Assembly (NCBI RefSeq): GCF_028641065.1
Contig: NC_073392.1
Location: 21,886,001 to 21,950,000, forward strand
Direction of reading: 5' to 3'
DNA from: Leucoraja erinacea
Taxonomy: Eukaryota
Length of the DNA stretch: 64,000 bases
Below the pieces are notes generated by a model that saw only the letters and a program-made list of their open reading frames with translations, searched no databases and had not been told where the DNA came from. Each line of letters starts with the position of its first letter. Position 1 is the stretch's first letter. Shown here in pieces: positions 8,184 through 63,756 of this stretch. The position numbers were made by a program, and so were the translations under genes.

Positions 8184-9374
8184 CTGGGGAAAAAAGGGAG
8201 AAAGAAAGAAAGAGAGGAAGGGTTGTAAGTGCTTGATTAAATATATAGATAGATAGATTGAAGAAGCCAAAATAGAGGTATTTAATTAAGGCATTGTGGA
8301 GTTTAGGGCCTTGACAATTGAAGATATGGATGCCATTGTGGGACTGATAGATTTTGGGTGTTCATGGAGCATTAAGAATTTATTATGCAAAGTTGTGTGG
8401 CTAGAGATAGGGAGGAATGAGACTATTGGGGGACAAAGACAAAAATGAGGTGTGAGGCTGCAGCATATTTGTTCAGTTATGGAACAATCAGAAATAAACT
8501 ACCATGAGTGCTGAATATCAAAAAAAAAGCTAAAAATACTTAGAGATCTGTAAGTGAAAAGAATTATTGTTTCAGTTCAATAACCTCATCCAAACCAGAG
8601 AAACAGAAGTATAAGAGGTTTTAAGGAAGGGTGAAAACAGAGAAAGATCGTAAGATGGGAAAAAATCATGGGTTGATGGTGGAAGAAATGGACAAAATGA
8701 AAAGTCAATAAAAGTGGCAGGTGAGAACAAGAAATTGATATAAGGAACATTGATACCGGGAACCAGAAATGGCAAAGGAACGTAAAGAAACAATAGAAGA
8801 CTAGAGGGGATGAAAATGGCAAAAGCTGAATCACTGACAACTACTGTTGTCTAAAAATATTTGGAATAGTAGTTTTGATTTTAAATTGCTGGACCAGGGA
8901 TACTGGAATTGTAGTTTTTTATGAGTGTGGGCACCTTCATATAGTGGGTATAACATTACCATGACCTGATTGCAAGTGTTGTGACCAATGCCCCATCTCC
9001 ACTGTGCAGGGAATAACTTTACCAGGCATAAATTCTTGTTTCCAATACTGTATTTGGAGATCATCAATGCAGACCCGATTCCAACCATTTCCAAAATCAC
9101 TAGTCACAATTTCCATAAAGATACTCATCTTTGGGATGCTTTACATCTCTTCATAAAGTCCAAGTATTAATGCTGGCTCTGGAACTGCCTTTTGTCATAT
9201 TGTGCACAACAAAATAACAGCTCGACACATGCTTATCAGTGTGAGGTCACAATAAAAATAATTGTGACCTCTTTGCGTTTACCTTTTGGTGTGCAGATCT
9301 CAGGACGATGGAGCTTGATTACTTTCTCCAACTAAATGACAAGAGTCTCAACTGTCTCTCCTGTTATTGGGGAG

Positions 9375-10001
9375 GATGGGTGGCCAACAGTCAGTCTGTC
9401 CCTTCCTTTGTTGTGTTTTAATAGTATGTGCTAAATGTATGTTTTTAGTGTTCTTTAGCTTGTTTTATGTGGAGGGGTGGTGGGGGGTTGGGGGAAACTT
9501 TTTCTAATCTCTTACCTCGACGGAGATACAATTTTTTTTCTGTATCGTATCTCCATCGGCACTGCAGTCTAATATCAAGGAGCTGGCGGCGTTTGTTGGA
9601 GACCAATATTTGAGAGCTCCACAGCAGGGAGCCTATGGGATAACATCACGGAGCCTGCAATCCCTTTGCCAGGGATCGACCTCAGAGCTCCAACCTCGGT
9701 CTCTCTGCTCCGGGGAATCCAAGCTGCAGGAGCTTCAACCGCCGGCTGCGGGAGCTTCGATCGCCCTGACGGATGGTTCGGCTACCCTGACAACTGGTGG
9801 ATAAAGAGGAAGAAGATTGGGCTTTTTTGCCTTCCATCACAGTGAGGAATGTGGGTAATCTGGTGTAGTGGATATTTATGTTAACTTTTTTGTTGTTGTG
9901 TGTCTTGTTTTTTTCCCCTCGTGTGGCTGTATGGTAATTTGCATATAGCTGTACCTTCATTGGTACATGTGACAATAAAAGACCTTTGAAACCTTTGAAC
10001 A
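9375..10001 (+). mobile_element. Same non-autonomous retroelement family
   Basis: Contains tcgtatctcc..ggagctggcggc and gccttccatcacagtgagga; tail tgtacc..ggtaca-tgtgacaataaa + (ccttgaa)n. Confidence 0.7.
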
Positions 10002-10850
10002 ATTACTCTGTTGCTTCACAGTGTGCTGCTATAGTTAAAGAATGTAAACATCTTGTGGACAGTCCCTTGCCATAATAAGTAACGGTTTTAGTCTCTACTA
10101 TCTTTGTTGTAATGTTGCCCTTTATCTGGTCATTGAACCTATTATATAATAGGTTGTAATTCATAAAATGTCATTAAGCCTCAGGCCTCAACAACTCCTT
10201 TGTGCCAATTCCCCTCTGCCCTCAATTTCCAAATCATTCAAAAAATATATCTATTTCTTCTCCACAACCCTCTGGAGTGGATAATTTGAGAGGTTCACAA
10301 CCCTCTGTGACAAAAATGTTTGTACACACCTCTGTTGTAAATATCCAACCCCTAATTTCACACCAATTTTCTTCTCTTTCGAGAAAGGCCCCTATCTGAA
10401 ATGTCACCTATTCTTGTTCTCCACAGATGCCTGACCGGCTGTTACTCCAGCACTTTGTGTATTTTTTTGTAAACCAGCATCTGTAGTTTCTTGTCAGAAC
10501 CCCTCAGGATCTTGTACAAGATCATTCTTCATTCTTCTAAACTCCAAAGCTGCATTGTTACATGCTGAATGATAAAGAGACCTCAAACTGTACTGAATGC
10601 AATTGGCATGCCATAAAATCAGCAAACAGTGCTGATGGGAACTGAGAGTTATCAGACGCCAATGCTTCTGAGATGCCAAACATTAATGCAGATTAATCCA
10701 TTAATCCATGATTTCTCGATAGTTTGATGTATTGAGGTGGAGGTCAGTGCTTCAAACTATTTCAAATGGCTATCTGATAAAGTGATGAAATAATCTATAG
10801 CTAGCGGGCAAAACCCTATATATACACTCTGGAATGCCCATTCCCACCAA

Positions 10851-13800
10851 GAGTCATAGTCATAGAGTGATACAGTGTGGAAACAGGCCCCTTTGGCCCA
10901 ACTTGCCCATACCGGCCAACATGACCCAGCTACACTAGTCCCACCTGCCTGTGTTTGGTCCATATCCCTCCAAACCTGTCCTATCCATGTGCCTGTCTTC
11001 TCTTAGATGTTGGGATAGTCCCAGCCTCAACTACCTCCTCTGGCAGCTTGTCCATACATCCACCTTCCTTTGTGCAAAAAAGTTACCCCTCAGATTCCTA
11101 TTAAATCTTTTCCCTTTCACCTTGAACCTATGTCCTCTGGTTCTCGATTCCCCTACTCTGGGAAAGAGATTCTGTGCATCTACCCGATCTATTCCTCTCA
11201 TAATTTTATACACCTCTCTCTATAAGATCACGCTCATCCTCCTGCACTCCAAGGAAGAGACCCAGCCTACTCAACCTGTCCCTATAGCTCACAACTTCTA
11301 GTCCTGGCAACATCCTTGTAAATCTTCTCTGAACACTTTCAAGCATGACAATATCTTTCCAAATGGTGCCCAGAACTGAACGCAATATTCTAAATACGAT
11401 CTCACTAACGTCTTATACAACTGCAACATGACCTACCAACTTCTTTACTTACTACTCTGACTGATGAAGGCCAATGTGCCAAATGCATTTTTGACCATCT
11501 TATTCACCTGCGACTCGACCTTCAAGGAACCATGTACCTGCACGCTTAGATCCCTCTGCTCCACAACACTCCCCAAGATTGGTACATGTCCCTATCATTC
11601 ACTGTATAGGTCGTGCCCTTGTTAGACATCCCAAAATGCAACTCACATTTCGCTGTGTTAAAGCCCATCAACCATTCCTCAGCCCACCTGGCCAATTGAT
11701 CAAGTTCCTGCTGCAATCTTTCACAACCATCTTCATGATCTGCAAAACCACCCACATTTGTATCATCAGCAAATTTGCTAATCTTGAAGAAGGGTCTGAA
11801 GAAGGGTTTCGGCCCAAAATGTTGCCTATTTCCTTCGCTCCATAGATGCTGCTGCACCCGCTGAGTTTCTCCAGCAATTTTGTGTACCTTTGCTAATCTT
11901 GTCCTATGTTCTCATCCAAATCATGATAAACAGTAACGGGCCCAGCACTGAACCATGAGACACACCACAAGTCACAAGCGTCCAGTCCGATAAGTAACCT
12001 TCCACCATCACCCACTGCTTCCTTCCATGAATCCAATTTGCTATTCATTCAGCTATCTCTCCCTTGATCCCATGCAATCTAACCTTCCACGGCAGCCTTC
12101 CATGCAGAACCTTGTTGAATGCCTTACTGAAATCCATGTATACAACAACTACAGCTTTGCCCTCATCGACCTTTTTGGTCACGTCTTCAAAAAACTCAAT
12201 CAGATTTGTGAGACACGACCTCCCACGTCCAAATCCATGCTGACTATCCCAAATCAGCTCTTGCCCATCCAAATGCATGTATAACCTATCCCTCAGAATA
12301 CCCTCTAGTAACTTTCCAACTACAGATGTTAAGCCTCCTGGCCTGTAGTTCCCATCATTTCCCCTGCAACCCTTCTTGAAAAGAGGCACAACATTTTCCG
12401 CCCTCCAGTCTTCCGGCACCTCTCCTGTATTTAAGAACGACTCGTAAATTTCAACCAAGGCTCCTCTCTAGTTTCCCACAATGCCCGAGGTGACCACTTT
12501 GATTCCAAGAGGTCCCACTATCTCTCTAGTTACCCTTTTCCCCCATAAGTATTTATAAAATCTTTTGGGGTTATCCTTAATGCTACCCACCAGAGTTATC
12601 TACTGGCCCTTTTTTACCCTTCTGATTTTGTTTTTCATTTTACTCCTTAGTTCCCGAAACTCCTCCAGGGACGCACTTAATCCCAGCTTCCAATACCTGG
12701 CCCATGCATCCTTCTTGTTTGTTGACCAATTTCCCTTGTCAGCCAAGCTTCTTTACATTTGCCTGCTTTGCCCTTCACTCTAACAGGGACGTATACATAT
12801 CCTGAGCTTTTGTCAGCACATTTTTAAAAACATCCCACTTGGTCGATGTTCCTTTCCCCTCAAATAACCTGCTCCAGTCAACAAGCGAGCCCTTCTCTCA
12901 TACCCTCAAAGTTGGCCTTACCCCAGTTGAGCATTTTAACACATGGGCCCTCTCTGTCCCTGTCCATAAATATCTTAAACTTAATCGAACTGTGGTCACT
13001 GGTCCCAAAAGGCGCCTCCACAAACACTTCATTAACTTGCTCTTCCCAATATCCCAATTCTAGATCCAGTGTTTCCCTCTCATGTGTGGGGGCATCTACA
13101 TACTGTTTGAGATAACTCTCCTGAACACTTTTATAGACAATAGACAATAGGTGCAGGAGTAGGCCATTCGGCCCTCCGAGCCAGCACCGCCATTAAATGT
13201 GATCATGGCTGATCATCTCCAATCAGTACCCCGTTCCTGCCTTCTCCCCATATCCACTGACTCCGCTATTTGTAAGAGCCCTATCTAGCTCTCTCTTGAA
13301 AGCATCCAGAGAACCTGCCTCCACCACCCTCTGAGGCAGAGAATTTGTTCCATATCTCTCTGTATCATCGTCTATATCTCTCGTTTTGATTAGTTTTGAG
13401 GAATTGCACCTCATTTAAACCCAACACACTATCCCAGTGTATATTGGCAAAGTTAAAATCCCCTACTACAACAACATTATTTGACCTGCAGCTGCCTGCA
13501 ATCTCCTGGTATATTTGTTCTTCTAATTCCCATTGACTATTTGGGTGTCTGTAGTGCACCCCAAACTAGGTGATCATCCCTTTCTTATAACCATATAACC
13601 ATATAACAATTACAGCACGGAAACAGGCCATCTCGGCCCTACAAGTCCGTGTCGAACAACTTTTTTCCCTTAGTCCCACCTGCCTGCACTCATACCATAA
13701 CCCTCCATTCCCTTCTCATCCATATTTATTTTTAAATGATACAATGATTCTTGTTCCTCAGCTCCACCCATATAGCCTTACTAGACAAACCGTCCGCAAT

Positions 13801-14350
13801 GTCACCTCTGACCATAGCTGTGACATAGAAACATAGAAAATAGGTGCAGGAGTAGGTCATTCGGCCCTTCGAGCCTGCACCGCCATTCAATATGATCACG
13901 GCTGATCATCCAACTCAGTATCCTGTACCTGCTTTCTCTCCATACCCCCTGATCCCTTTAGCCACAAGGGCGACATCTAACTCCATCTTAAATATTGCCA
14001 ATGAACTGGCCTCAACTACATCCTCCTTAACCAACAACAATGCAACCCCTCCTCCTCTTTTTCCCCTCACCCTGTCTCTTATGAAGCTCCTGTACCCTGG
14101 AACATTGAGCTGCCAGTCCTGCCCCTCCCTTAACCAGGTTTCAGTAATGGCTACAACGTCCCATCGCTCGTACCTATCCATGCCTCAAGCTCATCTGCCT
14201 GACCTGTCAGACCCCTTGCATTAAAATACATGCAGTTTAAACCAACCCTCCTTCCTCGCTCTCCGCCTTTCACCTGCATATTATGTCCACTAACCTTTCC
14301 CTCACCACCCTCCATACCAACTTCTAACCTCTCACCTGCATCTGTCCTGT
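10851..14350 (-). mobile_element. Long decayed CR1 LINE (endonuclease through 3' tail) with four nested insertions
   Basis: Endonuclease motifs CMYFNARGL, VAITETWL, VGDFNF; RT motifs NYRP, QHGF, DFSKAF, KFADD. Inserts at 11787-11888, ~13133-13345, ~13587-13745 and ~13823-14020. Confidence 0.88.
11787..11888 (+). mobile_element. Solo Penelope terminal-repeat fragment with 13-bp TSD
   Basis: TSD tttgctaatcttg at 11774-11786 and 11889-11901. Confidence 0.75.
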
Positions 14351-14599
14351 ATGAGAACCCACCCCCCTGCCAAGGTGAACATCCAGCCAAAACACAAAAC
14401 CCTGAGCTACAGCCTTCAGGTGGATCATCGCCATGAGTTGAGCATGAAAGTTCCTAAGAATATTTCTCTGCAACAACTTTGGAGAAACCATTTTGACAGC
14501 TTCACTTCAAACCTTCTTGGTAAATTATTAATTCATGCCACATTTTCCAGATGTGATTAGTATTGATTAATGTGACTAGGAAGATTGCAGAGGGTATGC

Positions 14600-15150
14600 A
14601 AAATTGTGTTGTTTTTGACAGTGAGGAGGTTCATCTTCAGTTACAGAATTATATTGATGTTGGTAAGATGTGTGAAGTAATAGTAGACAAATATGTGAAC
14701 TGATGTACTTAGTAAGGACGGACAATGTTAGGCCATACACAATGAATGAGAGACTCCGAGGAAGTTTTGGGGAAAAGAGGAGGCCTTGGCATACATGTTC
14801 AAGGAACCTTGCAGGCAGTAGTACTATAGATGAGAAGGCATACACGAGACATTCATTCATCTGTGGGCAGACATGTTGCCATTGTGTGCTGATCTAGTTG
14901 CCATACTGTGGAAAGGTTGTGATTGCAATGGAGTGGGTGTAATGAAGATTCACTAGGATTCTACCTGCAGTGGAGCTTTTCAATTATGAAGAGAAACTGG
15001 ATAGGTTTGGTTGCATTCCCTGGAGCAACCAAAGCTAAGGAAAAACCTGACTAAAGTATATGATTAAAAGGGGCATAAACAGGGTAGACTTTTTTTCCTC
15101 AGTGGAGACGTCTACAATCAGAGGAAACAGGTTTAAGGTAATGAGTGTAA
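14600..15150 (+). mobile_element. Old CR1 fragment
   Basis: Degenerate similarity to the CR1 ORF2 C-terminus (MIKRGINRVD...RGNRFKV). Confidence 0.55.
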
Positions 15151-15599
15151 GATACTGTGTGTACCCAAGCTCTTTCTGTTGTTACAAGACTGGCATCCAT
15201 GTGATAATGTGGAAAATTGCCCAAGATTCACTGGAAGTAGAATAGACATATATCACCTAGTCAGAGTGCTCTCGATCATTTTCAAAGTGATGGAAAGTGT
15301 TGTCAACAGTGCAATTAAGCAATTAAAAATTATTTGCGAATAATCTGCTTTTTGATGTCTAGTTTAGGTTTGTCCAGATTTACATGGATCTGAATTTCAT
15401 CACTGACTTGGGTCAAATGTGACCAAGACTGTGATTAAGAGTTGAGAACAGAATGACTGCACTTGTCAAAGGAGCACATTACCAAAAGTGGCATTGAGGA
15501 ATTGCTGTAAAACTGAACTGAAATTAAAGTGAAAACACTAATTTTTGGTGGCACAATTTACAAATAAGAAAATAATTTTTGGAAGTCAATCATTAAAAT

Positions 15600-15905
15600 C
15601 AAAGAGAGATACAGTATGGAAACAAGCCTCCAAATCCTTGCTGACCATCAACCACCCATTTACACTAGCCCATTTTAATATCCCCACATCATTTTCAACA
15701 CTCCCTAGATTTTACCACTCACCTACATACTATGGGCAATTTACAGTGGGCAATTGACACCGTGTGTCTTTGGGATCCGAGAGGAAATTGGAGCACCTGC
15801 AGAAAACCCATGCAATCACTTGGAGAACACAGGCAACTCCAGAGGTCAGGATCAAACCCAAGATTCTGGCGCTGTGAGGCACTGGCTGTACTAGCTGTGC
15901 CACCC
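15600..15905 (-). mobile_element. HE1-like V-SINE
   Basis: Reverse complement resembles 48280-48575 (tRNA-like head, V-domain, CR1-like tail). Confidence 0.7.
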
Positions 15906-16504
15906 TAGTCCCAGAATGTCATTGCAGGAATTCATCTGGACAGTGTCCTAGAATTAACCTTGTTTAGCTGTTTCAACCATAGCCTTTCTGCCTTAATAAA
16001 ATTGGAAGCCTTGATGTTCATTTATAATTGCATAATTCTCAATTCCATTCATAATGACTCAGAACCTGGATAACATTCAGGCAGGGTCTCATATTCATAT
16101 CCTAATTGCACTAGGCACTGATCAAGGCAAGAGAGTCTATCAACCAGTTTGATATCCAATAACAGTACCATTGCCACAGTTCCCCAAACCAACAAGCTAT
16201 GGGGACACCATTGATTAGAAACTCAGCTCGATCAGCCATATGAACACAATTGCTCCAACAGTTTATCAGAGCAAGTAATTCACCCTCAATGCTTCAGATA
16301 CTTTCCACCTTCTCCAAAAGAAAAGTGTGATTTTCCACTTGTTTAATGAGAGCATTTTAACAACACTCAAGACGATTGACATCATCCAGGACAAAGCAGC
16401 CTGCTGCACAAGCACTGGATCATGTCCCTTAATAATTAATTTCCTCCACACATTGCTGCAGTGTATGCCATTTACTAAATGCACCTGCCTAGGCTGTTAT
16501 CGAA

Positions 16505-17020
16505 TATAGAACAGAACAGTGTTCAGCACAATGTTTGTACTGAACATGATGCCAAGCTAAACTGATCTCAACTGCCTGTACATGATCCATATCCGTCCAG
16601 TCCCTGCACTCCATGCCTCTTAAACACCACAATTGTATTTGCCTCCACTATCCCTGGCAGTGTGTTCCAGATCCCCATCAATCTCTGGGTAAAAAACCTG
16701 CTCCACATATCTCCATTAAACTTTCCCCCTCTCACCTTATTGCTATGCCCTCTGATGCTGGGTATTTCTACCCTGGGAAAAAGGTTCTGACTGTCTACCC
16801 TATCTATGCCTCTCATAATTTTATATAATTCTATCAAGTTTCCCCTCAACCTTTGACGTTCCAGAGAAAACACCCAAGTCTATCCAACCTCTGAAACTCT
16901 CTAATCCAGGCAGCATTCTGGTAAACTTCCTCTGCATCCCCTCCAAAGCCTCCACATCCTTCCTGTAAATGGGGCAACCAGAACTGCATGAAATACTCCA
17001 AATGCTCATTTGAAGCATAG
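16505..17020 (-). mobile_element. CR1 3' fragment
   Basis: ORFs 16568-16873 and 16821-17018 carry CR1 C-terminal motifs. Confidence 0.85.
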
Positions 17021-18107
17021 CAAAAGCTAGTTAATGCAATCAAAGTTAACTTCACCACAGATAACAACATTCTGTTCTTTAACATTTTATGTGCTAATCC
17101 TAGTATGGCCTTGCAGAATATATCTAACTATTTAAGATGAATGCCAAACACACCCACTGTATTCTGTTAAATGTATCAAGTTTCCTGATGTATTCCATTT
17201 GCACCATTTCTATTATATTCTCTTGAGTCCTTTTTTACATGTTATTGCTTCCTTTATTATTCAGGGATACACTCTTTTTGCATTATGTTGTACTACATTA
17301 TGTTGTACCAGTTAAATCAGGGAAACGTATTGAGGCTGAATGTGACTCCCTCAGTCTGAAACACATAGTTATCCATTCAGCACAGTGCCTTAAGATCATA
17401 TAGACAGAACAACAATTGTACTTCACATCTATACACGTACACTACACCACAGTACACTACAGCTTAAGAAATGTGGGAATACATGTATGAGTGCATATTG
17501 TGTGTATGATGGTCAAATAGTATTTGTGGGTAACAGCATTAAGCTTAATGAAATATACATGTATAAATCCTTAAATATTTTTTCTGGAGTAGGATCACAG
17601 AGCAAACCACTCATGGTATTTAGCACACTGCCCACCTGCTACCATTTAATTCCTGCATTCCACACTCCCTTCTGCTACCTCATAAATGAGGTTTGAATTA
17701 CGGGTGTCAAATCCCTGCCTAACTAATAATCCATTGCAGCTATGAAAGTATAAAGCTCCTGACTCAGTTACAGCAGTAATGTTGAACAGAACTCAGGTCT
17801 CCTTTTAAAGCTGGAGCCTTAACATGAATTAGTGCAGTACTTGCTCTTAGCATGCAGTAATAAAGGCATCAAGGTGAAGGACATTTTAAATGTGCTCACA
17901 GTTTTGCATAAGGAGCAAGGTAGAAATAATAATCTAATGAGACTGAGACAGACTTCTCTGGTGTACCACATGTGCATGCACATTTGCTGAGCTAAATAAT
18001 TTCTATGCTACCTTTTAGTTTAGATAGGACAAGAGGGGAGAGATGTTGTGTTGTCTGTGCGTTGACAGGATTAATTGGGTCAAGTTAGTCAATTAGTGGA
18101 TTTAATA

Positions 18108-18179
18108 GGTACACAAAAAAGCTGGAGAAACTCAGCGGGTGCAGCAGCATCTATGGAGCGAAGGAAATAGGCCATTCCA
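18108..18179 (-). mobile_element. 72-bp Penelope terminal-repeat insert with 14-bp TSD
   Basis: TSD tagtggatttaata at 18094-18107 and 18180-18193. Confidence 0.75.
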
Positions 18180-18913
18180 TAGTGGATTTAATACATTCTT
18201 CATGTACAATCACAAATCAGGGCAAGAGGCAACAAGATCCAAATTACACAAATTCCATCAAACCAATGCGGCTGGATTTGAATGACAGGAGCATTGGGCA
18301 TGAGATGTCTTTGATTGAGAAGACATGGAACCTAATGTTGATTTGTTGCATTATAATGTAGCTCAAGCAAGTATTAACTGTACATGAGCATGGTTTTCGT
18401 ATTCTGTAAGTGTCAAGCATATGTATGTGCTTGCTGGGGTTGAAGTTTCTAGGGGGAGAGTTGGGGAAATGATGGGGTGGGTAAAAAGAAACGATGCAGG
18501 AGAATGGAAGATGCAAATATGTTTTGTCATCTACTGTATATTCCATCAAAATACATGGTGCAGTGAAATGTATTTGATTCTTCAAAGATGCTTGGTCTTT
18601 TGACAAATGCAACTCTAAATGCACCAATGCTGCAGCAAATGATTCAATCTGCTCTCAATAACTCTGATGCAGAGTTTCAGTCCTTCAGTTAACATGATCT
18701 TGACTCCTCCAGCTTGTCTCTTGGTTAAGTACAGTAATTCAGTAATTGCTGAGTAAGTGAGTTCACTGTGTCTGTCAGTCAACCTACAACATGGTCATCC
18801 GTAATGCTATAGGTAGGAGTGAACATACAGCAGTCTCATTACATTTACAAGTTTTGTTTTTTAAATAATAAACATGAGGTCATCCCTTGTTCATTACTAT
18901 ACTGACCCTAGAA

Positions 18914-19082
18914 CTGGCCAAATTTTGTGTCTTCCACCACAGTGATGAATGCTGTGGTGGATGTTTGTGTTAGATTTCTATTGTGTATTGTGTGTTCTTT
19001 CTCATTGTATCACTGCTGACATATTCATTTCACTTGCACTTTATGTGCAATGTGACGAATAAACCCGTATTGTATTGTATTG
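18914..19082 (+). mobile_element. 5'-truncated copy of the element ending at 63756
   Basis: Near-identical to 63586-63756, including the (gtatt)n tail. Confidence 0.85.
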
Positions 19083-19319
19083 AAATGAGAGGGTCGAAGA
19101 TAAAATCCATTCTCACTGCTGATTCAACTGATGCCAACCTTTCAAGGATGGAGGTTGTAGCTGAATTCCGCATGCCTTGTTCAAGAGAAGGTTAGTCAAG
19201 ATTCCTTTCCTGATTCCATTCCAACAAGCTTGCTACAATGTGGAGGCGTGAGAATCAAGTTAGGGTCTACCGTGATTGCCCCCACAGTCAAATAGACTGC
19301 TAGTTCACAATATGGTTCA

Positions 19320-19641
19320 CAACATCATCAAGGACCCACACCATCCTGGCCACACACTCATCTCTCCACTGCCATCAGGTAGAAAGTACAGGAGCCTGAA
19401 ATCTGGTACATCCAGCTTCAGGAACAGCTTCTTCCCCACAGCCATCAGGTTGTTAAACTCCCCATCAAACAAACTGAACTGTAACAGCCTATTGTACCAT
19501 CTGTTTATTTATGTGTATTTATATGGTCTATGCTATATAGACACACTGAACTGTTCTGTATTTATGCTTACAATATTCTGTTGTACTGCAGCAAGCAAGA
19601 ATTTCATTGTCCTATCTGGGACACATGACAATAAACTCTCT
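19320..19641 (+). mobile_element. Rex1/Babar LINE 3' fragment
   Basis: IIKDPHHPGHTLISPLPSGRKYRSL...RNSFFPTAIRLLN; tail catgacaataaa. Confidence 0.8.
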
Positions 19642-20878
19642 TAGAAACATAGAAAACAGGTGCAGGAGAAGGCCATTCGGCCCTTCGAGCCAGCACCACC
19701 ATTCATTGTGACCATGGCTGATCGTCCCCAATCAATAACCCGTGCCTGCCTTCTCCCCATATCCCTTGATTCCACCAGCCCCTAGAGCTCTATCTAACTC
19801 TCTCTTAAATCCATCCAGTGATTTGGCCTCTGCTGCCCTCTGTGGCAGGGAATTCCACAAATTCACAACTCTCTGGGTGAAAAAGTTTTTTCTCACCTCA
19901 GCCTTAAATGGCCTCCCCTTTATTCTGAGACTGGCCCCTGGTTCTGGACTCACCCAACATTGGGAACATTTTTCCTGCATCTAGCTTGTCCAGACCTTTT
20001 ATAATTTTATATGTTTCTATAAGACCCCCCCCCCCCATCCTTCTAAGCTCCAGTGAATACAAATCTTTTCAATCTTTCCTCATATGACAATCCTGCTATC
20101 CCAGGAATCAATCTCATGAACCTATGCTGCACTGCCTCAATCACAAGGATGTCCTTCCTCAAATTAGGAGACCAAAACTGTACACAATACTCCAGATGTG
20201 GTCTTACCAGAGCACTATACAACTGCAGAAGAACCTCTCTACTCCTATACTGAAATCCTTTTGTTATGAAGGTCAACATTCCATTAGCTTTCTTCACTGC
20301 CTGCTGTACCTGCAAGCCAACTTTCAGTGACCTGTGTACAAGGACACCCAGGTCTCGCTGTACCTCCCCCTTACCTAACATAACCCCATTGAGATAATAA
20401 TCTGCCCCCTTGTTTTTGCCACCAAAGTGGATAACCTCACATTTATCTATATTATACTGCATCTGCCTTGCATCTGCCCACACACTCACCCTGTTCAGGT
20501 CATCCTGCAACCTCCTAACATTCTCTTCACAGTTCACACTGCCACCCAGCTTTGTGTTATCCGCAAACTTGCTAGTGTTGCTCCTAATTCCCTCTTCCAA
20601 ATCATTAATATATATAGTAAACAGTTGCGGCCCCAACACCGAGCCTTGCGGCACTCCACTCGCCACTGCCTGCCATTCTGAAAAGGACCCGTTCACTCCT
20701 ACTCTTTGCTTCCTGTCTCCAACCAATTTTCTATCCACGTCAACACCCTACCCCCAATACCAAATACTCTAATTTTAGTCACCAGTCTCCCATGCAGGAC
20801 CTTATCAAAGGCTTTCTGAAAGTCTAGATACACTACATCCACTGGCTCCCGTTCATCCATTTTGTTTGTCACATCCTG
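19642..20878 (-). mobile_element. CR1 (HER1-like) LINE, RT through 3' tail
   Basis: ORF 20043-20738 contains GVPQGSVLGP, KFADN and LVRPHLEYC. Confidence 0.92.
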
Positions 20879-21151
20879 ACTTGACTTGATATGGAAGTGT
20901 GTTATCTGAGCACCTGAAAATTCAGCAAGACTCACAATCTTTGAGAAAGAGGCTGAAAATTCAAGAGGCTATTTCCATCAAACAGAACTCAATCTACTAA
21001 GAGTTGAGATTTATTTTAGTTACACTCTGCACTGTGGTACAAATCTCAGAAGTTTAAATTGCTTACAATTAATATATTAACAAAGCAATTTTTATAATCT
21101 TTACATTGGACAATAGCTATGAAATACCAGTGCATGCCTTGGGTTACTTAC

Positions 21152-34619: not shown

Positions 34620-35356
34620 TATTCAAAAGAGAAATAGTAAGAGTTCAAGGCTATCATGTTCCTGTTAGGTAAAAGCCAGGGTAAATAATATAGGGAATCC
34701 TAGATATTGAGGGATATTCAGGGTTGGATAAAGAAAATAAAGAAAAATGTGTCAAGTATTGGGAACTAATGACAGTATCAATATTATACAAAGTGTGAGA
34801 AGTGCTTAAAAAAGGAATTAGGAGGGATAAGATGTCATGAAAAATATATGGTAGGCAGTATTTTGGCGAATCCGAAGGCATTCTACAAGTACTATATATT
34901 GTGGTAATAGATTAAAACCATTAAGGGCAACAGGTGTAAGTGTGGCCAAGTCGCATCTGTAAAGGAAAGGAATTGATGACATTTTGGGATTGAGACCCAG
35001 TATCAGGACTGAGAGTGGACTGAGAGGATAGACATCAGAGAGGAAGTGGTGAGTTACTGGGCAGTAGGTGATGGGTGGACTGAAGAGGGATGGAGGACAA
35101 ATGGACCAGGTTGGGGAGGATGGATGGAGTTGGGAGACAGAGGCGAATGAGTGAAAGGTGGAAAAAGACAAAGAAGCAAAAGCAGAGCTTTGGGCATTAA
35201 GGCTTTTGCAATTTATAAAGCTGGCTGTTCAATAACAAAGGAACAAACAACTTGTTCCTTTTAAATGTTTGTTGATTCAGCACTTTTGACTGACAACAAA
35301 TCTGTAATCTTTTCAACATTTTTATCAGTTTAAAACAATGACATGCGTGTACTTAC

Positions 35357-35519
35357 TTGAGCAGTGTCTGAACTCAAATCGAAGGTGAGACCCCCTGAAT
35401 TTGTCAACCGGAATGGGCAGTTTGATTATCTCACCCCATCGTGGACTGTTGTTGTGGTACATCACAAAGGAGCAATGTTCAGTTACGGACGGCTCTCCAG
35501 ATCCAAGACTGATACAGTC
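35357..35519 (-). CDS. DOCK3: DOCK3 exon DCISLGSGEPSVTEHCSFVMYHNNSPRWGEIIKLPIPVDKFRGSHLRFEFRHCS (DHR-1)
   Basis: 163 nt, tag|GAC...TCAA|gtaagt, phase 0 to 1; contains the DOCK-family HLRFEFRHCS motif. Not in the ORF track; translated by hand. Confidence 0.95.
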
Positions 35520-38170: not shown

Positions 38171-38984
38171 TAACTGTTCTATCCACTTTTCCCACCTCTA
38201 CATCTCTCCTAATTATTTCAATTCCTATCCTGTTATGCTACTTGTCCAATGTCCAATCTTAGAAAGGATGCAACTTCCTCTAGTTAAAAACAATCTTCAC
38301 AGTTTGCCACAAACCCCCATTCAGTGCCGTGGACACTGCGCCTGCCTGTAGCTGATCAACTGCAACATTTATTTCAAATAAATCAGACTGGAGCTTCCAG
38401 CCAACACAGGAGCTATGACTTCTACTGCTAATCAACATTCATTCATGCCACCCCCTATTTCATTTCAACTGCCGTTGAAATCTCAACCATGCCTTTAACT
38501 AATTCATCTCATGGTTTGCCTTATCCTCTGTTAACTTCTGCTTATCCAAACCCTCGGTGCTTGCACCACTTACTCAACTGATGTTATTATCCTTCATTTA
38601 GATTTCCTTTTCCTTTTCTTGTGTTTAAATTATTTTATGGCTTTACATTCCCTGTGTAATTTCCATGAGCAATATAATTCCTCTCACTTCAGTTGCTTGT
38701 GCATAACCTTTCCTTTAATTCAATGAATGTGTGCCTGCAAAGGTTCCATATCATTTATTCCCAGATAGTGAATGTTGACGAGACTAAGGAGTGGCTTGAA
38801 TGTATTTATTTATTTTCTGACAGGAACCACTGGTGGTAATCAGAACTGGGAATCCTGGGCACTGTTTTCTTCCTGCGCTCAGAGCCAGAGAGATTAATGG
38901 AATCTGTCAACACTGGTGAAATCATGCAATTCAGTTTGAGCATCAAATTGGAGACCTTTTGATGTTTGCTTTTCCCGCCGGAGG

Positions 38985-39380
38985 AGGATGAGGGGTGATC
39001 TTATAAAGGCGTGTAAAACATAAGAGGAATAAATAGGGTAGATGTACAGAATCCTTTACCCAGAGTAGGGAAATCAAGAATGAGGACATTGGTTTAAGTT
39101 GAGAGGGGAAAGATTTAATAGGAATCTGAGGGGCAACTTTTATACGCACAGGATGATTGATATATGGGATGAGTTGCTGGAGGAGGTAATTGATGCAGAA
39201 GCTATAACGCCATTTAAAAGACAATTGGACAGGTACTTAGATAGGAAAAGGTTAAAGGGATACGGGCCAAACAAGGGCAGATGGGACTGGTGTAGTTGGG
39301 GCACCTTGGTCAGCAGGGGCAAGCTGGGCCGAATGGCCTGTTCCATGCTGTATGACTCCAAGACTACGACACTATGACTC
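38985..39380 (+). mobile_element. CR1 3' fragment whose tail abuts the DOCK3 5' splice site
   Basis: RGERFNRNLRGNF; tail tgtatgactccaagactacgacactatgact. Confidence 0.85.
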
Positions 39381-39382
39381 AC

Positions 39383-39507
39383 CTTCAGTATTTCTCCATC
39401 TGCATAAAGAACGTACATTGTTACTTCAATGTTCTTCTGAACACTCTTTCCACCTCTCTCAAAATCCCCTCGTTCCAATGTCAGATACAGATCGTTCCTG
39501 ATGTCAC
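39383..39507 (-). CDS. DOCK3: DOCK3 coding exon, downstream tandem copy of the same DHR-1 exon
   Basis: Same 125-nt exon and splice sites, offset by 370 bp; splices in frame to 35357-35519. Confidence 0.85.
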
Positions 39508-39752
39508 CTGTATGATGTTCACATAACATGTCCAAACAAATTACATTAATAATATTGAAAGGAATAACTCAAGAATTAAATTGACATTCAACAAAGGTTC
39601 AGTGTTGATGGACATATGTGCAGATAGTTTACACTTAAGTTTACACGCAGTGGTGAATTACTTCAAAAAGGGAAAGGATAAGTACTGGCTGAACTGGGCC
39701 GAATGGCCTGTTCCATGCTGTATGACTCCAAGACTACGACACTATGACTCAC

Positions 39753-39877
39753 CTTCAGTATTTCTCCATCTGCATAAAGAACGTACATTGTTACTTCAAT
39801 GTTCTTCTGAACACTCTTTCCACCTCTCTCAAAATCCCCTCGTTCCAATGTCAGATACAGATCGTTCCTGATGTCAC
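39753..39877 (-). CDS. DOCK3: DOCK3 coding exon, start of DHR-1/C2 domain, upstream tandem copy: (G)DIRNDLYLTLERGDFERGGKSVQKNIEVTMYVLYADGEILK
   Basis: 125 nt, cag|GT..AAG|gtgagt, phase 1 to 0. The peptide matches the DOCK3 sequence as I recall it. Identical to the copy at 39383-39507. Confidence 0.85.
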
Positions 39878-42129
39878 CTGTATGATGTTCACATAACATG
39901 TCCAAACAAATTACATTAATAATATTGAAAGGAATAACTCAAGAATTAAATTGACATTCAACAAAGGTTCAGTGTTGATGGACATATGTGCAGATAGTTT
40001 ACACTTAAGTTTACACGCAGTGGTGAATTACTCCAAAAAGGGAAAGGATAAGTACTGGCTGAACACAGATACAAAGTCCCTGTGATTTCCATATAATTCC
40101 CAAGACTGTAACAAACATTGCCCACGGAGGGTTCTGTTGAATTACCCAATCAAAAATATTAATGCTATGTTTCTCCAACATTTCATGTTTTAAACTTAAA
40201 AAAATCTAGCAGTATTCTTCTGTTAGTTTGATCCACTTTTATCACTATAGCAGAGTATATTGTCTGATGCCCGAGTGCACACAAGGGAACATGAAATATT
40301 ATGAATAGTGTTGTAATATGGTATTACATTACTAACATTATTATTACCTATATGTTGTGTTATTACTCAAAATAGAATCAAGACAGTTGAACTTTCACTG
40401 CAAAAGTTGACAAGATTAGTTCATAACACACTTTTATTCAGTTAAATGAGTTGCAGTAAAACTTTGCATCATAGTGAAATGAACTTTCTGATATAAACAG
40501 TGGTTTTGAAGTGTGGTCAAAGAAAAGAGCAGTTAGTCAAAGTGCCCATGTAAGAAATCATATGGCACAACAATGCCACCCTTTAATATTTTAAGTTTAA
40601 TATTTATGTTTATGCTAATAAATAAAATGGCATAGAATGATGAAATGTGGTTAAATCAGGAAGTCTTATTTAAGCATTGGAAAAAACAAAAATATGTATT
40701 TTTACACAAATAGTCTGTTTTCAAAGAATTGGAAATAGAAACATTCTGATGCCATTTCTGATTTGTACATTTGATGTAGGTAATGTGACGCAGCACACTA
40801 TTCAACAAATTCCAATCCAACTCACTGATACCTCATCCTTAGCATCAATAAATCATTTGAGTGTACCACATTTTCAAATGTCTTGAGCATGTATTTGTAA
40901 TTGCTTCTGGGAATCTTAGAGGAAGACAGTTGACGACCAACATTTTAAATCATTAAGATACTGCTTCTTACTCTTGTAAATTGAACCTTAACGCGAGTGG
41001 TAAATTCTCACTGTGTCTTAAACTGGGAGCTGTTCTAAATATTTTGCTTAACATTCATAGAAATTATTTATGGTATATATTTAATTTCCAACCACCACCC
41101 ATGCTCCCAAACCATGGGTAAAAATCACCATGTCAGTAAGGTACAATAAGTATACGAATGACATAGAAAGAGATCTTGTTCATCTGTGCTAGTTTTTACC
41201 TTCCATTCAAAGCTATAGACAGAAATGTCTACGAATACTTGATGTTACATGACTAACAATTTGGTACACAACTATGATATTCAGTATAAAGAAACAATTT
41301 AAAACAACAAAATCAGGTCAGTTTTCACCCGATGAAAGAGAAACAGGGTTGATTTCCCTTTACACAGGTGCTGTCTGACCCACGTATTTCCAACATTTTG
41401 TATTTAAAAATCATCAGTCATGTCTAGAATAAAGTTCATTTTAATTTTGCACAACAGGCATGCAGTTCTCTAGCTTTAGTTTTCTCTCATTAGATCCTCC
41501 CCATCAAAGGAAATGGGGAAGTGTCTTATTGAGGTTCTACTTTGACGGCTTTTGTCTACCCATACTTTTCACTGGCAAAGTTTATTTTTAAAGAGTGATG
41601 GAATCAATAAAAACATCAAAAAGGGTTGCATGTCCACTTCAGCCATGTAGCCATGGAACCAAGACAAAAATATATTTCAATTTAGCATTGCACAGAGGCC
41701 AGATAGGTAACATTATGTGATTGCAGACTTATTTTCAATACCGTCCACAAACGGTGTATAGAAACTATTGTAAAATACAGAAAATATCAAAATGTTACTT
41801 AAATTTGTTCATTTCAGGATGAAAGGAAGCAGTAAACTGGAAGCCACAATTAATGTAATAAAAATGCCTACAAATTCTGTATTTCGAGCTAAATTCTCTC
41901 CTGTCAAAGCTTTATTAATACATAAATGCCTTTTCTCAAAAGTTCAGGCTATGACTTTCCCAATCCAGCATGGGCTTTAATGTACTGTCATGGATGACCA
42001 GAGGATATCTGTGGCTACACATGGTCGCAGGCTAGAAATTAGAAGATGATTCCAGAGGAGATGGTTAAAGTCACTACACCCATTTCCTCCACCCATCATC
42101 CTCATGATTCTGCCAATGTTAGGGATTAC

Positions 42130-62914: not shown

Positions 62915-63756
62915 TAATAAGGCGGCCAAGGATGGACCCGCGGTGGGTGCCGGAGGTTTGTCTGGCCCACGGTGGGCGCCAGAGGTTTGATGGGCTCGCA
63001 TTAGCAGCCGGAGGTTGGACAGGCCCACGGTGAGAGCCGGAGTTTGGACGGGCCCACGGTGGGTGCCGGAGGGTGGATGGGCCCACGGTGGGTGATGGAG
63101 GTTGGACGGGCTCACGGTGAGTGCTGGAGGGTGGATGGGCCCACGGTGGGTGATGGAGGTTGGACGGGATCACGGTGAGTGCTGGAGGTCAGATAAGCCC
63201 ACGGTGGGTGCCGTGGTTTGGAAGACCCGCGGTGGATGCCGGAGGTTGGTCGAGGACTCGCCATTGAGAACAAAGAGGGACTCGGCATGGGGGCGCTGCC
63301 AAGAGAACAAAGAGGGACACGGCGTGGTGAGGCCACCGAGTACAAAAAAAATGTGTTGATGCCTATAGAAAGTGTGACTCTTTGCATACTTTGTGCATGG
63401 TATGCAAAAAAGAATTTCTTGGCCGCGGTCTGCGGTGTTCTAGCTGCAGCGCGGCGGGTACTGTAAATCTTCGATCGCCGGCCTGCGGTCTACACCATCC
63501 TGAAGCCGCGGTCTCCGGTGGGGAAGAGCCGACTATGGACTGGCTCTGGACTCTGGTCCCGACCACGGGGGTAAATGGAGGAGGACTGGCCAATTTTTGT
63601 GCCTTCCACCACAGTGATGAATGCTGTGGTGGATGTTTGTGTTAAATTTTTATTGTGTATTGTGTGTTCTTTCTCATTGTATCACTGCTGACATATTCAT
63701 TTCACTTGCACTTTATGTGCAATGTGACGAATAAACCCGTATTGTATTGTATTGTA
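62915..63756 (+). mobile_element. Non-autonomous retroelement with internal minisatellite and Rex1-like tail
   Basis: Hairpins ccaccacag..ctgtggtgg and tgcac..gtgca, then gaataaa + (gtatt)n. Confidence 0.65.
62934..63250. repeat. ~30-bp GC-rich minisatellite, about 10 degenerate copies (gggcccacggtgggtgccggaggttggac)
   Basis: cacggtg(g/a)gtg recurs about every 29-30 bp. Confidence 0.85.

What the first reader, a model, noticed from the sequence alone, without database searches (positions are those of the whole stretch)
39324..40063. Very recent tandem duplication of a frame-shifting DOCK3 coding exon
Seen in sequence: two head-to-tail 370-bp units differ at one intronic base (39663 T / 40033 C). 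Each carries the whole 125-nt DHR-1 exon with acceptor and donor, creating a new 245-nt intron (39508-39752). Because 125 is not divisible by 3, including both copies reads GTG ACA TCA GGA ACG ATC TGT ATC TGA in the second copy, a premature stop; skipping both also shifts the frame. The acceptor has a poor pyrimidine tract (tgttatgtgaacatcatacag), and the junction shows ctggctgaa/ctgggccgaa microsimilarity. Inference: if real, this is either a nascent mutually exclusive exon pair with an NMD-based dosage effect, or a segregating loss-of-function allele. It could also be an assembly artefact from two haplotypes placed in tandem.
Basis: partly seen in the sequence, partly recalled or inferred. 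Interest (0 to 1): 0.8.

Follow-up and report, generated by a model that had tools for sequence, protein, structure and literature searches.

The report
Private DOCK3 exon duplication, possibly artefact
One coding exon of the nerve-cell gene DOCK3 appears twice in a row in this genome assembly, which would break the gene; the other samples examined show no sign of the doubling, so it is probably an assembly error or a rare broken allele rather than a new splicing switch.

Summary
The sequence description is right: two head-to-tail 370-bp units with one mismatch, each carrying the 125-nt first exon of the DOCK3 C2/DHR-1 domain; splicing in both copies, or neither, gives an early stop. The rest of DOCK3 looks intact and single-copy. 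The repeat does not look like a fixed trait. In two deep public runs (X1, labelled organism A and closest to the window, and X3, organism B) one unbroken contig passes through a single unit into the right flank, with 20 left-hand letters that do not fit the junction. No run shows the copy-1 T. Both copies carry an allele (39577/39947 T) that another organism-A run lacks, so the doubling postdates a site that still varies. These are simplified contigs, not reads, so artefact and rare real allele cannot be separated. Nothing enforces mutual exclusion (branch points over 170 nt from the donor, identical GT-AG sites, no pairing arm), although the acceptor is the weakest of 36 in the gene. Odds: assembly duplication 0.50, rare loss-of-function allele 0.38, tolerated or nascent mutually exclusive pair 0.12. 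The scan's earlier notes hold no such finding.

The parts
39324..39693 (.). Unit 1 of the 370-bp tandem duplication; carries the private T at 39663
39694..40063 (.). Unit 2 of the duplication; C at 40033, the base held by all four laid runs
39753..39877 (-). DOCK3 exon copy read first (125 nt, phase 1 to phase 0; start of the C2/DHR-1 domain)
39383..39507 (-). DOCK3 exon copy read second; out of frame if spliced after the first copy
39508..39752 (-). New 245-nt GT-AG intron between the copies; branch-point-like A's at -34, -39 and -69 (177-212 nt from the donor), one more at -151 upstream of other AGs
39481..39483 (-). Premature TGA in the two-copy transcript, 98 nt before the end of that exon
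38979..39380 (+). Decayed 3' end of an abundant retroelement (CR1-like LINE by recall), antisense to DOCK3; its short-repeat tail runs into the exon's donor site, and the duplication's left break lies inside it
35352..35519 (-). Next DOCK3 exon downstream, entered in phase 0

Best explanation
The doubling is private to this assembled sequence and most likely an assembly duplication: one 370-bp stretch written twice head to tail, either from two haplotypes that differ at 39663/40033 or from a stuttered consensus or gap-fill beside a repeat. The animal would then have an ordinary single exon and a normal DOCK3. Shown: the anatomy, and single-unit contigs in two runs. Inferred: that it is an artefact, and how it arose.
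For:: the X1 contig (3865 nt) and X3 contig (2904 nt) lie on 39694-41000 unbroken and each has 20 further letters on the left that do not extend into the junction (the junction 20-mer and the true left-flank 20-mer agree at 3 of 20). The X4 contig runs unbroken from 39730 to 41000. A real duplication would split a 31-mer graph at the unit start and at 40003-40035. Depth is 0 at 39572-39652 in 4 of 4 runs, where a piece with the copy-1 T would lie. One mismatch in 370 bp is what two haplotypes give (0.85 expected at the X1-window rate of 3 in 1307), while a new mutation would need about 49,000 to 11 million generations at a shark rate of 7e-10 (PMC10587355 abstract; applying that rate here is an assumption), long for a damaging allele. 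The mismatch sits at a TT/CC edge beside an A run, an error-prone context (recalled). All other placed DOCK3 exons read open. Biallelic loss causes disease in people and mice (PMC10606569 abstract start and passages).
Against: There is no N gap at or near the junction (0 N in 264 kb), whereas false duplications on one scaffold are mostly separated by a gap or depth gap (PMC9516828 passages). The assembly is not littered with such doublings: 0 other adjacent two-copy repeats of 99% identity or more and 80 bp or more in 0.96 Mb outside the window, against 14 older ones at 70-97%, including a blunt 325-bp one, so real tandem duplications of this size do arise here. No second haplotig of the stretch was found. 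The runs may all be other individuals (X1 differs from the window at 2 bases and one 2-base indel in 39694-41000). Logan contigs are simplified graphs (PMC12424806 passage) and could have lost the 59-nt loop and 61-nt bubble. The 20 letters and the joint were not printed because the tables were cut.
Confidence: 0.5

Rival explanations
1. A real, rare, probably heterozygous single-exon duplication allele made by end-joining or template switching with 1 bp of microhomology. Both identical exons are mostly spliced in, the frame shifts, the stop at codon 9 of the second copy sends the transcript to nonsense-mediated decay, and the allele acts as a recessive null or strong hypomorph lacking most of DHR-1 and all of DHR-2.
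For: Gapless, clean junction. Older tandem duplications of 80-700 bp occur at 13 per 0.96 Mb, plus one of 3.2 kb, and other near-perfect ones were not seen. Both copies carry T at 39577/39947, shared with X1 but not with X3, X4 or X12, as expected if it arose on one recent haplotype. Human out-of-frame single-exon duplications of DMD exons 44 and 45 gave no detectable dystrophin untreated (PMC1931584 passages). DOCK3 disease is biallelic, so a carrier could be healthy.
Against: The mismatch between copies is unexpected for a young allele unless it is a consensus error or came from crossing over between homologues. If X1 is the assembled animal, which is unknown, its unbroken contig argues against it. 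No direct read support was obtained.
Confidence: 0.38
2. A real, tolerated duplication that segregates in the population: the unusually weak acceptor lets most transcripts take only one of the two identical exons, decay removes two-copy and no-copy transcripts, and the pair is a newborn mutually exclusive exon pair with a modest dosage cost.
For: Weakest acceptor of 36 in the gene. The exon length is not a multiple of three, as in 377 of 629 human mutually exclusive clusters (PMC5740500 passages). A real post-duplication mismatch would imply tens of thousands of generations of survival.
Against: No steric block, no U2/U12 mismatch and no complementary arm above chance in either flanking intron (best E about 1). 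Not seen in 3 deep runs. X12, labelled organism A, has G at 39947 while both copies have T, so it is not fixed. 0 of 183 retrieved proteins hold the exon-start motif twice.
Confidence: 0.12

Closest known systems
False exon duplication in genome assemblies (heterotype and homotype false duplications; Ko et al. 2022, PMC9516828, passages read)
   Same: Near-identical adjacent copies on one scaffold that differ at about the level of heterozygosity and would corrupt a conserved gene.
   Different: No assembly gap between the copies; read depth and read-pair discordance, the paper's defining tests, could not be measured.
Out-of-frame single-exon duplication alleles such as DMD exon 44 and exon 45 duplications (PMC1931584, passages read)
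   Same: A non-3n constitutive exon doubled with both splice sites; two-copy and no-copy transcripts are out of frame, one-copy is wild type.
   Different: Here the unit is only 370 bp with a 245-nt intervening intron and a weak acceptor; its presence in an animal and its splicing are unproven.
Mutually exclusive exons from tandem exon duplication (Hatje et al. 2017, PMC5740500, and Ivanov and Pervouchine 2022, PMC9013439, passages read)
   Same: Equal length, same phase, homologous, non-3n, so joint inclusion would be removed by decay.
   Different: The copies are identical, so there is no protein variety; no enforcing feature, no RNA evidence, and not seen in related samples.

Membership tests
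False duplication (Ko et al. 2022) | Half or very low read depth over the copies | not testable with these tools
   Only contigs were available for DNA runs, with one depth figure per contig.
False duplication (Ko et al. 2022) | Assembly gap between the copies | tested here: not met
   0 N in the 264-kb stretch; an unsupported depth gap cannot be seen.
False duplication (Ko et al. 2022) | Discordant pairs, or reads that show a single unit | tested here: inconclusive
   X1 and X3 contigs follow a single-unit path, but may come from other individuals and from simplified graphs.
False duplication (Ko et al. 2022) | Copies differ by heterozygous k-mers | tested here: inconclusive
   1 difference against 0.85 expected; the T was seen in 0 of 4 runs.
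Out-of-frame single-exon duplication allele | Whole exon doubled with both splice sites, and a premature stop on joint inclusion | tested here: met
Out-of-frame single-exon duplication allele | Present in the animal's DNA, with both copies spliced into mRNA | not testable with these tools
   No raw reads of the assembled individual were available; no RNA was laid.
Mutually exclusive exon pair | Homologous exons of equal length and phase | tested here: met
   Identical 125-nt copies.
Mutually exclusive exon pair | Steric block (donor to branch point under 50 nt) or U2/U12 incompatibility | tested here: not met
   Nearest branch-point-like A is 95 nt from the donor, the likely ones 177-212 nt, by a simple motif scan; both introns GT-AG with identical sites.
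Mutually exclusive exon pair | Competing RNA pairings (docking and selector sites) | tested here: not met
   Best complementary matches between the unit's intron parts and both flanking introns are 9-14 nt at E about 1-4; short imperfect helices could be missed.
Mutually exclusive exon pair | RNA junction reads showing one-of-two inclusion | not tested
   No RNA was laid; the one raw RNA run offered (X22) belongs to organism D.
Mutually exclusive exon pair | Fixed or conserved in the lineage | tested here: not met
   Single-unit contigs in organisms A and B, and the 39947 site, with the caveat on simplified contigs; 0 of 183 proteins hold the motif twice.

The most novel reading that the evidence does not exclude
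The duplication is real and segregating, and because this exon has the weakest acceptor in DOCK3 the spliceosome usually takes only one of the two identical copies. That would be a mutually exclusive exon pair caught at birth, before any divergence, kept viable by a weak acceptor plus decay alone, with single-copy animals of the same species as a built-in control.
Probability: 0.1. Interest if true: 0.6.

Novelty: new member of a known kind. Interest (0 to 1): 0.2.

Why it matters
If it is an artefact, it matters only as a correction: the DOCK3 model in this assembly could be annotated as broken or given a false extra exon. If it is a rare real allele, it is one more recessive loss-of-function variant in a wild animal. 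Only the unlikely case, a tolerated pair of identical non-3n exons, would be of wider interest, because it would let one test how tandem exon duplicates survive the first step towards mutually exclusive splicing.

Tried and rejected
No RNA holder was listed for the stretch; this is no evidence on expression. Only 4 of 24 listed runs could be laid (X1, X3, X4, X12); organisms C and D and the RNA run X22 were not examined. Zero depth over most of copy 1 is not evidence by itself, because each 31-mer occurs once per contig set. X12 (shallow) covers 39215-39494 and 39860-40047 and says nothing on either junction. The joined-form count across runs was not given, and the joint table was cut at a summed depth of 52.5, just above the 51.9 that a single-unit joint would have. 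A protein search with the open frame that runs from the first-read copy into the junction found 120 proteins, none matching the flanks (best coverage 86% at 64% identity): uninformative. A 25-nt pattern from the unit's end found 0 matches in metagenome contigs: uninformative. Crossover at the two similar junction words was rejected because both words are retained. In-frame rescue by cryptic sites: 4 acceptors inside the second copy and 7 GT/GC donors keep the frame, but all look weak by eye and no splice-scoring model was available. Two of 38 exon junctions could not be placed and were left out of the acceptor count, and a few placed ones may be off. The first repeat scan flagged a 136-bp identical pair with 20 bp between (L040) and a 128-bp unit at 99% (L079); the first scored 97.4% by BLAST and the second lies in a larger array, so neither is counted as a 99% two-copy duplication. 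Earlier scan notes: none for this genome, two unrelated ones by words.

Full report
Observation. The repeat is as described: 39324-39693 and 39694-40063, one mismatch (39663 T / 40033 C), one base of exact overlap at the junction. Each unit holds a 125-nt minus-strand exon that matches Pfam DOCK-C2 positions 3-42 of 187. The named hits among the best 120 of 512 proteins are DOCK3; solved DOCK1, DOCK2 and DOCK5 chains match more weakly. The window lies at G000:C16:21886001-21950000. The genome search shows one DOCK3 locus and a paralogue on C19, and no second copy of this stretch elsewhere. Across 264 kb the other matched exons are single and read open, with no N. The host looks like a cartilaginous fish; that is recalled from the repeat type and was not tested.

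Splicing consequence. The upstream exon (C16:21951609-21951735) ends in phase 1 and the downstream exon (35519-35352) begins in phase 0. One copy gives an open frame. Two copies stop at codon 9 of the second-read copy, 98 nt before its end and with some 30 introns still to come; skipping both or retaining the 245-nt intron also stops. Decay of such a transcript is inferred from the established 50-55 nt rule (recalled). The acceptor is the most pyrimidine-poor of 36 placed DOCK3 acceptors (0.47, median 0.76). It predates the duplication, since no other letters are listed there in the laid runs. Branch-point-like A's lie 177-212 nt from the new donor, far beyond the 50-nt steric limit used by Hatje et al. 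(PMC5740500 passages); both copies have the same GT-AG sites, and no complementary arm above chance links the unit to either flanking intron. Nothing tested forces a one-of-two choice. The closest precedent, DMD exon 44 and 45 duplications, gave no detectable protein untreated, and the authors put the low wild-type-like bands down to PCR artefact (PMC1931584 passages).

Is it in other samples? Of 24 listed runs, 20 hold part of the stretch, 6 hold half or more of its words, and none is on record as RNA. Four were laid, all as contigs. X1 (organism A) is closest: 2 substitutions and one 2-base deletion in 39694-41000, against 8 and 10 other letters for X3 and X4 (organism B). In X1 and X3 a single contig covers 39694-41000 and has 20 more letters on the left that do not continue into the junction; X4 runs unbroken from 39730. 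A graph simulation shows that a duplicated haplotype, homozygous or heterozygous, breaks into pieces of 339, 61, 31, 59 and 61 nt here, while a single unit gives one piece. No run has a piece with the copy-1 T, and all four carry C. So the single-unit path is what these runs show. The limits are real: the 20 letters were not printed, the runs may be other animals, and Logan contigs pass through graph simplification (PMC12424806 passage) that could drop a 59-nt loop and pop the bubble.

Age. Both window copies have T at 39577/39947. X1 has T; X3, X4 and X12 (organism A, another study, depth 6) have G. With organism B as outgroup G is ancestral, so the doubling postdates a site that still varies among organism-A runs and is unlikely to be fixed. 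The one mismatch fits two haplotypes (0.85 expected) or a consensus error. As a new mutation it would need about 49,000 to 11 million generations at 7e-10 per base (rate from the PMC10587355 abstract, borrowed from a shark).

How ordinary is it in this assembly? In 0.96 Mb outside the window (76 scattered 10-kb pieces and 200 kb of flank) there were 0 other adjacent two-copy repeats of at least 80 bp at 99% identity or more (upper 95% limit 3.8 per Mb) and 14 at 70-97%, with one 100-N gap. The assembly is therefore not systematically stuttering, and real duplications of this size occur in this lineage. This, with the gapless junction, keeps the real-allele reading close to the artefact reading. 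False duplications are defined by depth, gaps and discordant pairs (PMC9516828 passages); only the gap could be tested, and there is none.

Verdict. The doubling is in the assembly but appears private to it. I put an assembly duplication at 0.50, a rare real loss-of-function allele at 0.38, and a tolerated or nascent mutually exclusive pair at 0.12. Biallelic DOCK3 loss causes disease in people, and knockout mice show progressive movement defects (PMC10606569 abstract start and passages), so a fixed null is unlikely. A search for DOCK3 with 'exon duplication' returned 1 paper, on DMD (listing only), and a four-term search on tandem exon duplication and decay listed 5 papers, none with DOCK3 in title or abstract start; most subscription papers are outside that library. 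Tandem exon duplication as a source of mutually exclusive exons is well described (PMC9013439 passages; PMC6071210 listing). Each reading falls in a known class; raw reads from the assembled animal would settle it.

Noticed in passing
window 38979-39382: A decayed retroelement 3' end lies antisense to DOCK3 and its short-repeat tail runs directly into the exon's donor, whose first intron bases resemble the tail unit on the other strand. This suggests insertion at the donor by tail microhomology with the splice site preserved. The left flank-to-exon path is also in X12, and the tail end in X1 and X3.
   Followed up: partly
window 40148: The window has A where X1, X3 and X4 all have T: another base private to this assembly, 85 bp from the duplication, either a rare allele or a consensus error.
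   Followed up: no
L048:3157-9998 (G000:C9:60003157-60009998): A tandem duplication with a period of about 3.2 kb at 95.6% identity.
   Followed up: no
L040:7433-7724 (G000:C4): Two identical 136-bp copies with 20 bp between them.
   Followed up: partly
window 8184-21148 and 39878 to C16:21951608: DOCK3 introns of about 13 kb and 26 kb; the 26-kb intron precedes the exon with the weakest acceptor.
   Followed up: no
window 62930-63249: GC-rich 29-bp minisatellite, about 11 copies, in the upstream intron.
   Followed up: no
G000:C35:14511009-14511698: A DOCK-family match sits in an 813-aa open frame that spans what are separate exons in DOCK3, with a second match 370 bp further on; possibly an intron-poor or retroposed paralogue.
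   Followed up: no
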